Translations under genes and position numbers: made by a program
Assembly (NCBI RefSeq): GCF_003019035.1
Contig: NZ_CP027447.1
Source of the DNA: Escherichia coli
GTDB lineage: Bacteria; Pseudomonadota; Gammaproteobacteria; Enterobacterales; Enterobacteriaceae
Direction: 5' to 3' (one strand)
Length of the DNA: 64,000 nucleotides
Shown here: piece by piece, positions 36,509-38,775 of the stretch
Position numbering within the stretch: the stretch's first letter is position 1
Layout of the letters: each line of letters opens with the position of its first letter
Notes under the pieces: generated by a model
What the model saw: only the letters and a program-made list of their open reading frames with translations
What the model was told of the DNA's origin: nothing
Databases searched by the model: none

Positions 36509-37447
36509 CTAACCAACTTCAATTAATTGCCTTCGTCTACACCCATTATAAGATGAATACTCTTTGGCTAATTCCACCAAAACCGATGCTGCTTTTTTAA
36601 TACGATAATTTTTCGACCATACCGCGGCATATTGTGCCACAGGTAATGTTTCTTCAACCGGAATAGTAATAAATTGATTAGAACCAAAAGGTGATGTCAT
36701 ATCACATGGAATTACAGTTAAGAAATCAGCATTGAGAACAAGATTATAAATTGTCACGACTGAGTCGGTTTTAACGATGTTTTCAATACTGATGCCATTT
36801 CTTTGTAACGTAGTAAGTAGCTCGCTGTAGTACCCCATATTGGTTTGTGGCAACACCCACTGTTCGTTCTTCAACGACTCCAGCGTGGTGGTGCCGGTGC
36901 ATGTTCGGGACTTACTGGCTACCAGCACAAACTCGGACTCGAACAGCGGCTCAACATGTAAATCCTGAAGCTTCATTTCTGCGCTTAACGTACCAATCGC
37001 AAAATCAAGTCGACCGTCGCGGATTGCCGGTAAGAACGAAGACAGTTGCGCTTCATACATAGAAACCTGCGCTTTCGGGAACACCTCTTTGAACTTGTTG
37101 ATCATCCCTGACATAAAAGTAAAACCAATCAATGAAGGAAAACCAAATGAGACTTCCACCACCGCCTCAGAAGACATACCGCTTATCTCATTAACCATAT
37201 TTTTCATTTCACGGGTAATGGATTCGGAACGAGAGAGTAACAATTGACCGGCAGGTGTTAATGTTACACCGGTATTTTTCCGCACCACTAATTCCACACC
37301 AAAATAATCTTCAATATCGTTAATGATTTTACTGACGGCCGGTTGAGTTAACCCTAATTCTTTTGCAGCCGAGCCGATAGAACCACTTCTAATGACTTCC
37401 TGAAAGACTACCAGGTGCTGCGTTTTCGGAAGAAGAATAGTGCTCAT
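36509..37447 (-). CDS. tdcA: LysR-family activator of the tdc operon, TdcA
   Basis: 312 aa; N-terminal helix-turn-helix; first gene of the tdc operon. Confidence 0.88.
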   Translation of the reverse strand: MSTILLPKTQHLVVFQEVIRSGSIGSAAKELGLTQPAVSKIINDIEDYFGVELVVRKNTGVTLTPAGQLLLSRSESITREMKNMVNEISGMSSEAVVEVSFGFPSLIGFTFMSGMINKFKEVFPKAQVSMYEAQLSSFLPAIRDGRLDFAIGTLSAEMKLQDLHVEPLFESEFVLVASKSRTCTGTTTLESLKNEQWVLPQTNMGYYSELLTTLQRNGISIENIVKTDSVVTIYNLVLNADFLTVIPCDMTSPFGSNQFITIPVEETLPVAQYAAVWSKNYRIKKAASVLVELAKEYSSYNGCRRRQLIEVG

Positions 37448-37761
37448 AACGACCTACGTTAATTACCTCATTGACGGCATGAAGTGTATCAAAATGAAAT
37501 GAACAGGATATGTGCGACCACTCACAAATTAACTTTCAATACTTTCCAGGGTAACTTCACGTCAATTAAATACCTTTAAATATCAATAAGTTAAAGTATA
37601 AAAATCAGCATAAACCCTGATTTTTGTCAAAAAAAATGACGGGGATAACCATATTTTATGGCGATAACATCATTCGTTATGTGGTTAATACAAAAAAGGG
37701 GCTGAGACCATATTTCAAGCAATTACCGGATAATTACCAGGCAAAATTTGAGTTAAATTTA

Positions 37762-37980
37762 ATGAGCAAGTTCTCAAATTTTATTATAAATAAACCATTT
37801 TCAGCGATAAATAATGCGGCACGTCACATTTTTTCACGCTATTTGTTGGAGAACAAACATTTATTTTATCAATATTTTAAAATTTCGAATACAGGTATTG
37901 ATCATCTCGAACAATTGATTAACGTCAACTTTCTCCCTCATGACAGGACGTCATTTTGTGAATGCAATCGTTTTCCATAA
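37762..37980 (+). CDS. tdcR: small tdc operon regulatory protein TdcR
   Basis: ORF 37624-37980 (118 aa) trimmed to MSKFSNFIINKPF... (72 aa); divergent from tdcA; start uncertain. Confidence 0.55.
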   Translation: MSKFSNFIINKPFSAINNAARHIFSRYLLENKHLFYQYFKISNTGIDHLEQLINVNFLPHDRTSFCECNRFP

Positions 37981-38235
37981 ATTCTTCTCCCCTCATAGGT
38001 GACGAATAGCATTTTGTGTTGAGGATCACAAAACGAATAATTGCTGGTCGCCGCGATAAGGTCAGCCAAAGACAACAAGGGGAATTTTCACAGAGCTTTT
38101 GATCGGCGTAGGCCACAGAATGTTGCTTCGTTTACTGTAATGCCGGGTAAATGAGCGTTTTTTGATAGTGCGAAAGTGCCGTGCGAGGAAAATAAGCATC
38201 TATTATTGTTTGTCATGATGACAAGGCAGGCATCA

Positions 38236-38775
38236 ATGAAAGGCTTCCCAATTGCACATATTTTTCACCCTTCAATCCCGCCAATGCACGCAGTGGTTAA
38301 CAATCACAACAGAAATATTGATTATTGGACGGTAAAAAGAAAGTTTGCAGAAATTGTCTCCACCAATGACGTTAATAAAATATACAGTATAAGTAATGAA
38401 CTGCGGAGAGTATTATCTGCAATTACTGCATTGAATTTCTATCAAGGCGATGTTCCTTCTGTCATGATTCGAATCCAACCGGAAAATATGAGTCCATTCA
38501 TCATAGATATTTCTACAGGAGAACATGACGATTATATCATACAAACATTAGATGTAGGCACTTTTGCACCTTTTGGCGAACAATGTACTTGCTCAGCCGT
38601 CAATAAAAAAGAGCTGGAGTGTATTAAGGAAACGATTTCTAAGTATTGTGCAAAATTCACCCGAAAAGAAGCCATCTTACCCCCCCCTACGTATTTTAAT
38701 AAAACATCCATTCCTTCAGATTGTTGGCAAATTCTCTTTTTTTCACCCGATCATTTTAATAATGATTTTTATTGA
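38236..38775 (+). CDS. yhaB: uncharacterized protein YhaB
   Basis: ORF 38176-38775 trimmed to MKGFPIAHIF... (179 aa); low-GC gene; start uncertain. Confidence 0.6.
   Translation: MKGFPIAHIFHPSIPPMHAVVNNHNRNIDYWTVKRKFAEIVSTNDVNKIYSISNELRRVLSAITALNFYQGDVPSVMIRIQPENMSPFIIDISTGEHDDYIIQTLDVGTFAPFGEQCTCSAVNKKELECIKETISKYCAKFTRKEAILPPPTYFNKTSIPSDCWQILFFSPDHFNNDFY

What the first reader, a model, noticed from the sequence alone, without database searches (positions are those of the whole stretch)
37624..37980. tdcR reading frame is open for 118 codons although the recognised product is 72 aa
The ORF track gives a 118 aa frame (MSKKMTGITIFYGDNIIRYVVNTKK...) whose last 72 residues correspond to the TdcR I recognise (MSKFSNFIINKPF...). 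The extra 46 codons lie in the AT-rich tdcA-tdcR divergent region, so the true start and the existence of a protein product are uncertain from sequence alone.
Basis: seen in the sequence. Interest (0 to 1): 0.2.

Follow-up and report, generated by a model that had tools for sequence, protein, structure and literature searches.

The report
tdcR's extra upstream codons are non-coding
The 46 extra in-frame codons ahead of the small E. coli gene tdcR belong to the control region of the neighbouring tdc operon rather than to a protein. Even the accepted 72-codon gene evolves as if its amino-acid sequence did not matter.

Summary
Window 37624..37980 (+) is a 118-codon open frame, and its last 72 codons are TdcR as RefSeq and NCBIfam define it. 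Two corrections apply: the frame's first codon is TTG, not ATG, and the first ATG (37636) gives the 114-aa form found in thousands of GenBank records.

The extension does not behave as coding sequence. In four cryptic Escherichia lineages both upstream starts are gone, a 1-nt deletion breaks the frame, and a TAA closes it 27-31 codons upstream. ATG 37762 is kept in every Escherichia lineage examined. Neither upstream start has a Shine-Dalgarno match (+0.6 kcal/mol, against -2.2 at 37762). Codons 8-12 of the long frame are a LysR-type dyad conserved across genera.

The 72-codon core also lacks a coding signature. Changes by codon position are 27/34/28, against 5/5/106 in tdcA, and 25% of changes are synonymous against 23% expected under neutrality. 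Salmonella, Citrobacter and Klebsiella carry collinear, conserved DNA there but no open frame. They share a TAA and are one base shorter, so the frame opened in Escherichia.

The start-site question is ordinary and favours the short form. Whether TdcR is a functional protein at all remains open.

The parts
37624..37980 (+).
   Evidence: A stop-free run of at least 119 codons has P=0.037 in shuffles.
37762..37980 (+). tdcR as annotated by RefSeq and NCBIfam (72 aa). Its ATG is the only start conserved in all Escherichia lineages examined.
   Evidence: There is a weak SD-like GAG at 37750-37752 (duplex -2.2 kcal/mol, spacing 8), and the translation initiation region folds weakly (MFE -6.9).
37624..37761 (+). 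46-codon in-frame extension, read here as 5' leader plus upstream regulatory DNA of tdcABC rather than coding sequence
   Evidence: The frame is closed and the starts are absent in four cryptic Escherichia lineages. Changes by codon position are 4/7/5. It has no family match. The DNA is conserved in genera that have no ORF here.
37636..37638 (+). First in-frame ATG, the start of the 114-aa form common in GenBank
   Evidence: Clusters of 114-aa entries hold thousands of members. It has no SD (+0.6 kcal/mol). It is replaced by AAG, or by a shifted sequence, in the cryptic clades, Salmonella and C. farmeri.
37644..37668 (.). Block GATAAC-N13-GATAAC, identical in all Escherichia sampled and near-identical in other genera. 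It contains the dyad ATAA-N7-TTAT (37645-37659; T-N11-A), a candidate TdcA (LysR-type) binding site, and occupies codons 8-12 of the long frame.
   Evidence: The dyad arms are conserved and the spacer varies in Salmonella, two Citrobacter species and K. aerogenes. The block is also recovered by BLAST in P. vulneris, Raoultella, Yokenella and Trabulsiella.
37511..37526 (.). CRP-like site TGTGCGACCACTCACA of the tdcABC promoter
   Evidence: It is identical in Escherichia, Salmonella and C. freundii and differs at one base in K. aerogenes.
37581..37593 (.). IHF-consensus-like TATCAATAAGTTA
   Evidence: The core ATCAAT is conserved across genera. Function is inferred from the consensus only.
37575..37602 (+). 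Published sequence-based prediction of a constitutive tdcR promoter (TTTAAA-16-TATAAA). It lies upstream of all three candidate starts.
   Evidence: PMC3946193, located in the window. This is a prediction, not a mapped transcription start.
37871..37884 (+). T/A run that holds one base more in every Escherichia sequence than in Salmonella, C. freundii, C. farmeri and K. aerogenes. The extra base joins the two halves of the tdcR frame.
   Evidence: Anchor distances and the alignment.
37951..37953 (+). Codon 110 of the long frame (codon 64 of TdcR). It is TCA in Escherichia and TAA in all four outgroup genomes.
36509..37447 (-). tdcA, the divergent LysR-type regulator gene, used as the coding control
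   Evidence: pN/pS is 0.01-0.04, and changes by codon position are 5/5/106.

Best explanation
The 118-codon frame is real, but its first 46 codons are not coding sequence. They are the distal part of the upstream control region of the divergent tdcABCDEFG promoter, and in E. coli that DNA happens to contain no stop codon in this frame.

This control region carries a CRP-like site, an IHF-like site and a LysR-type T-N11-A dyad, and its spacing is conserved across genera.

If the locus makes a protein, translation starts at ATG 37762 and gives the 72-aa form. The tdcR frame as a whole is young. It was opened in the Escherichia lineage, by a one-base insertion and a TAA-to-TCA change, inside DNA that is conserved as non-coding sequence in Salmonella, Citrobacter and Klebsiella. 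Since then it has evolved without detectable constraint on its amino-acid sequence.

Shown here: the frame and start-codon states, the codon-position statistics, and the cross-genus conservation. Inferred: that the conserved blocks are the TdcA, IHF and CRP sites of the tdc promoter, and that ATG 37762 is the start actually used.
For: (1) Starts and frame. TTG 37624 is TTA in MOD1-EC7003 and in all four cryptic lineages. ATG 37636 is absent in the four cryptic lineages. A 1-nt deletion near 37690 and a TAA close the frame 27-31 codons upstream of ATG 37762. ATG 37762 is kept in all 14 Escherichia sequences.

(2) Ribosome binding. The SD:anti-SD duplex is +0.6 kcal/mol at both upstream starts and -2.2 at 37762. 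Local folding is -11.2 and -11.7 at the upstream starts against -6.9 at 37762.

(3) Substitution pattern in the extension. Changes by codon position are 4/7/5 over 42 codons and 9/9/12 over the proximal 23 codons. There are 8 synonymous and 18 non-synonymous events.

(4) Binding-site signature. Codons 8-12 are the dyad ATAA-N7-TTAT inside GATAAC-N13-GATAAC. The arms are conserved and the spacer varies across genera, as expected for a protein-binding site.

(5) Family model. The NCBIfam TdcR model is 72 positions long and the extension matches nothing.

(6) Outgroups. The whole frame has collinear homologous DNA upstream of tdcA in Salmonella and Citrobacter (68-70% identity over 485-605 nt) and more weakly in K. 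aerogenes. No ORF of 35 aa or more lies there. All four outgroup genomes (three genera) share a TAA at codon 110 and are one base shorter.

(7) Non-coding constraint. Among the genera without the ORF, this DNA diverges 0.27-0.30 with no gaps, against 0.48-0.51 at tdcA four-fold sites.

(8) The core. Codon-position changes are 27/34/28 (p=0.62), and 22 of 88 events are synonymous (25%, against 23% expected under neutrality). pN/pS is 0.6-1.2, the same as in the two other frames. For tdcA the figures are 5/5/106 and 134 synonymous against 7 non-synonymous.
Against: Within E. coli proper and the two closest lineages (MOD1-EC7003 and the P0017 lineage), ATG 37636 and the 114-codon frame are intact in all 10 genomes examined. 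The 114-aa form also dominates public protein records.

The long frame is mildly longer than chance predicts (P about 0.04).

The only promoter proposal I found lies upstream of all three starts, so the mRNA may contain ATG 37636 (PMC3946193). The A-rich leader before that ATG could allow SD-independent initiation.

The SD at 37762 is weak, and its GAG becomes AAG in the cryptic clades.

No direct translation or N-terminal data were obtainable. The lack of a codon signature could partly reflect overlapping DNA-level constraint and the small sample (14 sequences, 88 events). E. albertii, E. fergusonii and E. marmotae were not sampled.
Confidence: 0.75

Rival explanations
1. E. coli proper makes the long (114-aa, or 118-aa from TTG) protein, alone or alongside the 72-aa form. 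On this view the extension is a lineage-specific N-terminal addition to TdcR.
For: The frame and ATG 37636 are intact in all sampled E. coli and clade-I-like lineages, and thousands of database entries are 114 aa. The chance of the open extension is about 0.04. The predicted promoter lies upstream of ATG 37636. The leader is A-rich.
Against: There is no SD match (+0.6 kcal/mol) and the initiation region is more structured than at 37762. The start and the frame are lost in four sister lineages that keep the short ORF. Changes in the extension are not concentrated at third positions. The extension overlaps a binding-site-like dyad conserved across genera. AlphaFold gives no confident structure for the extension (pLDDT 35-38 over residues 1-30).
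Confidence: 0.1
2. TdcR (72 aa) is a genuine trans-acting activator protein, as the literature states. On this view the missing codon signature is an artefact of a small sample and of DNA-level constraints that overlap the gene.
For: Databases and reviews list TdcR as a regulator of tdcABC, with its own one-member transcription-factor family (PMC4797297; PMC9426608). The ORF is open in 13 of 14 Escherichia sequences. There was 1 stop gain against 3.4 expected. Conserved peptide blocks exist (FIINK, HLFYQ, SFCECNRF).
Against: The deficit of stop gains is not significant (P=0.15). The 'conserved peptide blocks' are also conserved as DNA in genera where the frame is closed. pN/pS is 0.6-1.2 in the annotated frame and no lower than in the other two frames. 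No Pfam domain, PDB relative or homologue was found among 1.84 billion representatives. AlphaFold pLDDT is 41.8. One lineage has a premature stop, and E. coli variants with C-terminal frameshifts form sizeable clusters (P0018, 110 members). The primary experimental papers could not be read here.
Confidence: 0.4
3. The tdcR region acts as a structured non-coding RNA.
For: Conservation is at the nucleotide level without codon structure.
Against: There is no Rfam match at E<=1. The RNAalifold consensus over 11 sequences is only -5.6 kcal/mol with an unfavourable covariation term of +0.69. The conserved blocks are short, AT-rich and held at fixed spacing, which looks like protein-binding sites.
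Confidence: 0.05

Closest known systems
TdcR of E. coli K-12 (b3119; NCBIfam NF008507 / PRK11424, 72 aa)
   Same: Same gene. The window's 72-aa translation scores 169 bits over the whole profile. It has the same position, divergent from tdcA, and the same RefSeq coordinates. It is 92% identical to the K-12 protein.
   Different: Nothing differs in kind. This strain has 7 amino-acid differences from K-12 and no synonymous ones.
114-aa 'DNA-binding transcriptional activator TdcR' entries in GenBank/nr
   Same: They are the same frame started at ATG 37636. Clusters P0002, P0006 and P0008 hold hundreds to thousands of members.
   Different: They include 42 codons that are absent from the curated family model, are not conserved as a frame outside E. 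coli and its closest lineages, and overlap a conserved binding-site-like dyad.
De novo ORFs: taxonomically restricted frames that open in ancestrally non-coding DNA
   Same: The frame is restricted to Escherichia. Syntenic homologous DNA without an ORF exists in sister genera. The enabling changes are polarised by four outgroup genomes. There is no amino-acid-level constraint.
   Different: Here the ancestral DNA is not neutral. It is a conserved regulatory region. The ORF already carries a regulator name from genetics. Translation was not tested here.
'Promoter islands' and H-NS-bound AT-rich spacers of E. coli
   Same: A published promoter island is listed at tdcA/tdcR (PMC3661553). A separate RNA-polymerase SELEX survey flags this spacer as H-NS-associated (PMC3946193). 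GC is about 0.30.
   Different: Such islands are usually read as horizontally acquired DNA. This one is vertically conserved with fixed spacing across genera.

Membership tests
TdcR (NCBIfam NF008507 equivalog) | Whole-protein HMM score above the curated cutoff of 100 bits | tested here: met
   The score is 169 bits for residues 47-118 alone and 166.5 bits for the 118-aa frame, with the match confined to residues 47-118 (profile 1-72 of 72).
TdcR (NCBIfam NF008507 equivalog) | Family model covers the N-terminal 46 codons | tested here: not met
   The profile is 72 positions long, and the 46-aa extension matches no NCBIfam family or Pfam family.
TdcR (NCBIfam NF008507 equivalog) | Trans-activation of tdcABC by the gene product | not testable with these tools
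   The primary papers (Schweizer & Datta 1989; Hagewood et al. 1994) are not held. Only secondary citations were seen.
N-terminally extended proteoform (alternative upstream start) | Upstream start codon and frame conserved among relatives that keep the downstream ORF | tested here: not met
   TTG 37624 and ATG 37636 are lost, there is a 1-nt deletion, and a TAA lies 27-31 codons upstream in E1V33, E. whittamii, E69 and SCPM-O-B-8794.
N-terminally extended proteoform (alternative upstream start) | Ribosome-binding signal at the upstream start | tested here: not met
   The SD duplex is +0.6 kcal/mol at 37624 and 37636. SD-independent initiation cannot be excluded.
Protein-coding gene under purifying selection | Excess of synonymous or third-position change in the annotated frame | tested here: not met
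   The core gives 27/34/28 by codon position (p=0.62), with 25% synonymous events against 23% expected under neutrality. The tdcA control gives 5/5/106 and 95% synonymous.
Protein-coding gene under purifying selection | Open frame kept in orthologous DNA of sister genera | tested here: not met
   Salmonella, C. freundii, C. farmeri and K. aerogenes have stops and a frame offset in the homologous DNA. No ORF of 35 aa or more lies there.
Helix-turn-helix DNA-binding transcription factor | Recognisable DNA-binding domain or fold | tested here: inconclusive
   There is no Pfam domain, no PDB relative at E<=1 and no homologue outside Escherichia. AlphaFold pLDDT is 41.8, with helices predicted at low confidence.
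De novo ORF from non-coding DNA | Taxonomic restriction together with syntenic non-coding homologue in outgroups | tested here: met
   Protein hits come only from Escherichia and Shigella. Collinear DNA of 68-70% identity lies upstream of tdcA in Salmonella and Citrobacter.
De novo ORF from non-coding DNA | Enabling mutations polarised by outgroups | tested here: met
   TAA in all four outgroup genomes against TCA in Escherichia at 37951-37953. All Escherichia are one base longer between conserved anchors. E. albertii and E. fergusonii were not sampled.
De novo ORF from non-coding DNA | Evidence that the ORF is transcribed and translated | not testable with these tools
   No usable ribosome-profiling or proteomic record for tdcR was found.
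LysR-type regulator binding box (T-N11-A dyad) | Interrupted dyad with T-N11-A, upstream of the regulated promoter, arms conserved | tested here: met
   ATAA-N7-TTAT lies at 37645-37659. The arms are identical and the spacer varies in Salmonella, two Citrobacter species and K. aerogenes. Binding by TdcA itself is not testable here.

The most novel reading that the evidence does not exclude
tdcR is not an ancestral regulator gene. It is a frame that opened de novo in Escherichia inside a conserved, non-coding upstream control region of the tdc operon. The activator phenotype attributed to 'TdcR' would then come from that DNA rather than from a protein, either through cis architecture or through titration of nucleoid proteins such as H-NS or Lrp by plasmid-borne copies.
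Probability: 0.3. Interest if true: 0.6.

Novelty: already known. Interest (0 to 1): 0.3.

Why it matters
The start-site question is an annotation matter. Thousands of public records carry a 114-aa TdcR, while the curated model is 72 aa. The comparative data favour the short form, so the long entries should not be propagated.

The wider point is that TdcR appears as a transcription factor in E. coli regulatory-network resources, as the only member of its own family. Yet its frame shows no amino-acid-level constraint and has no counterpart in Salmonella, Citrobacter or Klebsiella, where the same DNA is conserved as non-coding sequence.

Two outcomes are possible. If a TdcR protein is confirmed, it would be a well-polarised example of a bacterial regulator born from regulatory DNA. 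If it is not, an edge in the E. coli regulatory network is an artefact, and the 600-bp tdc upstream region deserves study as a large, spacing-constrained control element. That region is also a recurrent target of IS5 insertion during adaptation to the mouse gut.

Tried and rejected
Literature:
- The primary tdcR papers and the K-12 re-annotation paper are not held.
- A transcription-start-site paper was not held.
- The Ribo-RET preprint has no supplements held.
- The TRAINSPOTTER supplements do not mention tdcR.
- The INRI-seq supplement lists only an out-of-frame ATT at +97 for tdcR and says nothing on the annotated or upstream starts.

Structure and homology:
- AlphaFold models of the 72-aa and 114-aa forms were both low-confidence (pLDDT 41.8 and 43.5), so no fold search was run.
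- There was no PDB hit and no Pfam hit.
- The exhaustive profile search returned only TdcR fragments and one artefact, P0055, which is a copy with every A read as G.

RNA: no Rfam match and no supported consensus structure.

Promoters and terminators: the consensus scan found nothing on the + strand and no terminator.

Frameshift variants: P0021 comes from an assembly whose tdcA and tdcB are also truncated, so it was discounted as sequencing error. P0052 lies at a contig edge with no upstream DNA.

Tests that did not discriminate:
- pN/pS is 0.5-0.8 for the proximal extension and 0.6-1.2 for the core, so it does not separate them.
- ORF maintenance in the core is not significantly better than neutral (1 stop gain against 3.4 expected, P=0.15).
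- The absence of indels in the core is not evidence for coding, because the ORF-less genera also show none.

Full report
**What is there**

The window is E. coli. The tdcA-tdcR-yhaB stretch is 100% identical to strain AR_0077 and is present in 5,392 of 5,426 complete genomes. The sequence shows that codon 1 is TTG, the first ATG is codon 5 (37636), and the ATG of the recognised protein is at 37762.

RefSeq annotates tdcR as the 219-nt CDS equivalent to 37762..37980 in AR_0077, K-12 and CFT073. The NCBIfam equivalog NF008507 is a 72-position profile. It matches residues 47-118 at 166-169 bits, against a cutoff of 100, and the 46-residue extension matches nothing. No Pfam family matches either form.

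Public protein collections hold both versions. Several 90%-identity clusters of 114-aa entries start at ATG 37636 and hold hundreds to thousands of members, and there are also 72-aa RefSeq entries.

**Is the long frame more than chance?**

GC is 0.29-0.31 here, so stop codons are frequent.
- Dinucleotide shuffles of the tdcA-tdcR spacer leave 46 or more stop-free codons upstream of the ATG in 4% of trials.
- A stop-free run of 119 or more codons in any of the six frames of the 728-nt region occurs in 3.7% of shuffles.
- A run of 72 or more codons occurs in 61% of shuffles.

The long frame is mildly unusual. A 72-codon frame is what this composition gives anyway.

**Which start?**

The SD:anti-SD duplex energy is +0.6 kcal/mol for TTG 37624 and for ATG 37636. 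It is -2.2 kcal/mol for ATG 37762, from a GAG at 37750-37752 with spacing 8. The -30..+30 region folds at -11.2 and -11.7 kcal/mol for the upstream starts and at -6.9 for 37762. None of the three is a strong site, and the short start is the best of them.

A published sequence-based promoter proposal (TTTAAA-16-TATAAA; PMC3946193) maps to 37575-37602. That is upstream of all three starts, so it does not discriminate, and it is not a mapped transcription start.

**Relatives**

A scan of one genome per species for TdcR-like peptides found six loci, all in Escherichia.

In E. coli proper and the two closest lineages (MOD1-EC7003 and the P0017 lineage; tdcA pS about 0.1), the 114-codon frame and ATG 37636 are intact in all 10 genomes compared. 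The indels seen among strains all lie upstream of 37624.

Four more distant Escherichia lineages were compared: sp. E1V33, E. whittamii, 'E. coli' E69 and SCPM-O-B-8794 (tdcA pS 0.27-0.35). In these:
- TTG 37624 is TTA.
- ATG 37636 is gone.
- A 1-nt deletion lies near 37690.
- A TAA closes the frame 27-31 codons upstream of ATG 37762.
- ATG 37762 itself is unchanged.

**What the 46 codons are instead**

The block 37644-37668 (GATAAC-N13-GATAAC) is identical in every Escherichia sequence, although its flanks vary. It contains the dyad ATAA-N7-TTAT, a T-N11-A motif of the kind LysR-type regulators bind.

I then fetched the DNA upstream of tdcA from Salmonella, C. freundii, C. farmeri, K. aerogenes, P. 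vulneris, Raoultella, Yokenella and Trabulsiella. In Salmonella, both Citrobacter species and K. aerogenes the dyad arms are conserved while the 7-bp spacer varies. BLAST also recovers this block at the same distance from tdcA in the more distant genera. That pattern is the signature of a binding site.

A CRP-like site (TGTGCGACCACTCACA, 37511-37526) is essentially invariant across genera (one base differs in K. aerogenes), and the ATCAAT core of an IHF-like site (37581-37593) is also conserved.

Suppose the CRP site is centred at -41.5. The dyad centre then falls at -175 and the IHF-like site near -110 of the tdcABC promoter. This agrees with my recollection of the published tdc promoter architecture, but I could not read those papers, so the assignment is an inference.

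Published surveys report Lrp and RNA-polymerase binding in this spacer, flag it as H-NS-associated, and list a 'promoter island' there (PMC5320599; PMC3946193; PMC3661553).

**The core also lacks a coding signature**

I used tdcA from the same loci as the control.

| Measure | tdcA | tdcR core (72 codons) |
|---|---|---|
| pN/pS against the window | 0.01-0.04 | 0.6-1.2 |
| Minimum changes at codon positions 1/2/3 | 5/5/106 (p=6e-39) | 27/34/28 (p=0.62) |
| Parsimony events, synonymous / non-synonymous | 134 / 7 | 22 / 66 |
| Synonymous fraction (neutral expectation) | 95% (26%) | 25% (23%) |

The core pN/pS is no lower in the annotated frame than in the other two frames. The codon-position counts use 9 sequences for tdcA and 14 for the core. 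The event counts were made on a neighbour-joining tree of the 9 sequences that have full-length tdcA.

The window and K-12 differ by seven non-synonymous changes and no synonymous ones. One lineage, SCPM-O-B-8794, has a premature stop. Overall there was 1 stop gain against 3.4 expected, which is not significant (P=0.15). The stop codon itself is not conserved, and three lineages read on for six more codons.

There is no homologous protein outside Escherichia and Shigella, even in a profile search of 1.84 billion representatives. There is no PDB relative. AlphaFold gives pLDDT 41.8 for the 72-aa form and 43.5 for the 114-aa form.

**Outgroups polarise the origin of the frame**

The whole tdcR frame, extension and core alike, has collinear homologous DNA upstream of tdcA in Salmonella and two Citrobacter species. 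Identity is 68-70% over 485-605 nt, with at most one gap. Homology in K. aerogenes is weaker but collinear. No gene is called there, and no ORF of 35 aa or more exists on either strand at that place.

Projected onto the E. coli frame, these genomes carry several stops. At 37762, Salmonella has AAG and C. farmeri has ATA.

Two differences are shared by all four outgroup genomes:
- TAA where every Escherichia has TCA, at 37951-37953.
- One base fewer between the conserved anchors AAACATT (37856) and ATACA (37889).

Klebsiella lies outside the Escherichia-Salmonella-Citrobacter group. Parsimony therefore says the ancestor had no such frame and that Escherichia opened it.

The DNA is nevertheless constrained where there is no ORF. 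Salmonella and Citrobacter differ by 0.27-0.30 in the core-homologous stretch, with no gaps, against 0.48-0.51 at tdcA four-fold sites. The distance from the tdcA start to the GTCACATTTTTT block is 376-377 nt in all five genera. The conserved function of this DNA is therefore non-coding.

It does not look like a structured RNA. There is no Rfam match. The RNAalifold consensus is -5.6 kcal/mol over 253 columns, with an unfavourable covariation term.

**Verdict**

The extension is best read as regulatory and leader DNA that is stop-free in E. coli partly by chance. It stays stop-free because that DNA varies little.

ATG 37762 is the only start with comparative support, so the short annotation is the defensible one. 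The long form in E. coli proper cannot be excluded without translation data, and I give it about 0.1.

The less ordinary result concerns the accepted 72-codon gene. It is an Escherichia-only frame inside conserved non-coding DNA, and it evolves without detectable amino-acid constraint. That fits either a young de novo regulator or no functional protein at all.

The main caveats are these:
- The sample is small: 14 Escherichia sequences and 4 informative outgroup genomes.
- E. albertii, E. fergusonii and E. marmotae are missing.
- Overlapping DNA constraint may mask codon signals.
- I could not read the genetic evidence for trans-activation.

Noticed in passing
window 38015-38030: A second CRP-like palindrome, TGTGTTGAGGATCACA, lies just downstream of the tdcR stop, about 504 bp from the tdcABC CRP-like site. 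It is conserved in Salmonella, C. freundii and K. aerogenes, which lack yhaB and yhaC. Its target promoter is unknown.
   Followed up: partly
window 38176-38775 (yhaB): The same kind of start ambiguity occurs next door. The ORF list starts yhaB at GTG 38176 (199 aa), but RefSeq starts it at ATG 38236 (179 aa).
   Followed up: no
L003 (CFT073), L010, L011, L018: Some E. coli lineages lack yhaB-yhaC. Only short pseudogene remnants follow tdcR, and then rnpB and garK. The window strain and K-12 carry both genes.
   Followed up: no
window 37551-37580: A hypervariable patch (1.33 minimum changes per site among 8 Escherichia sequences) sits between the IHF-like and CRP-like sites, flanked by strongly conserved blocks. 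All strain-level indels in the spacer lie at 37585-37623.
   Followed up: partly
tdcA-tdcR spacer (window about 37448-37761): [quoted passage not shown] By my inferred conversion of coordinates, the IS5 site would lie about 81 bp upstream of the tdcA start, next to the CRP-like site. I did not verify this.
   Followed up: partly
window 37658-37705: A 15-codon ORF in another frame has the best SD-like duplex of the region (-5.7 kcal/mol, GGGGA). Its ATG lies inside the conserved GATAAC...GATAAC block, so this is probably incidental.
   Followed up: no
P0055 (protein library): A 117-aa 'homologue' in the 50%-identity representative library is the TdcR long frame with every A read as G (K to G/R, N to G, I to V). 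It appears to be assembled from base-converted reads and is not a relative.
   Followed up: yes
L015 (E. coli YPE10) and L009 (SCPM-O-B-8794): Natural knock-outs exist. In YPE10, IS1 copies replace tdcA and the 5' half of tdcR. SCPM-O-B-8794 has a premature TAA at codon 51 of the core.
   Followed up: no
window 37978-37980 and loci L005, L006, L016: The tdcR stop codon is not conserved. In three Escherichia lineages TAA has become a sense codon and the frame runs on for six more residues (SFLLPA, WFLLAS, SFLLSP).
   Followed up: no
L026 (Raoultella) 687-968: A 93-aa ORF with no Pfam match is called upstream of tdcA in the same orientation as tdcA. It is unrelated in position and strand to tdcR.
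   Followed up: no
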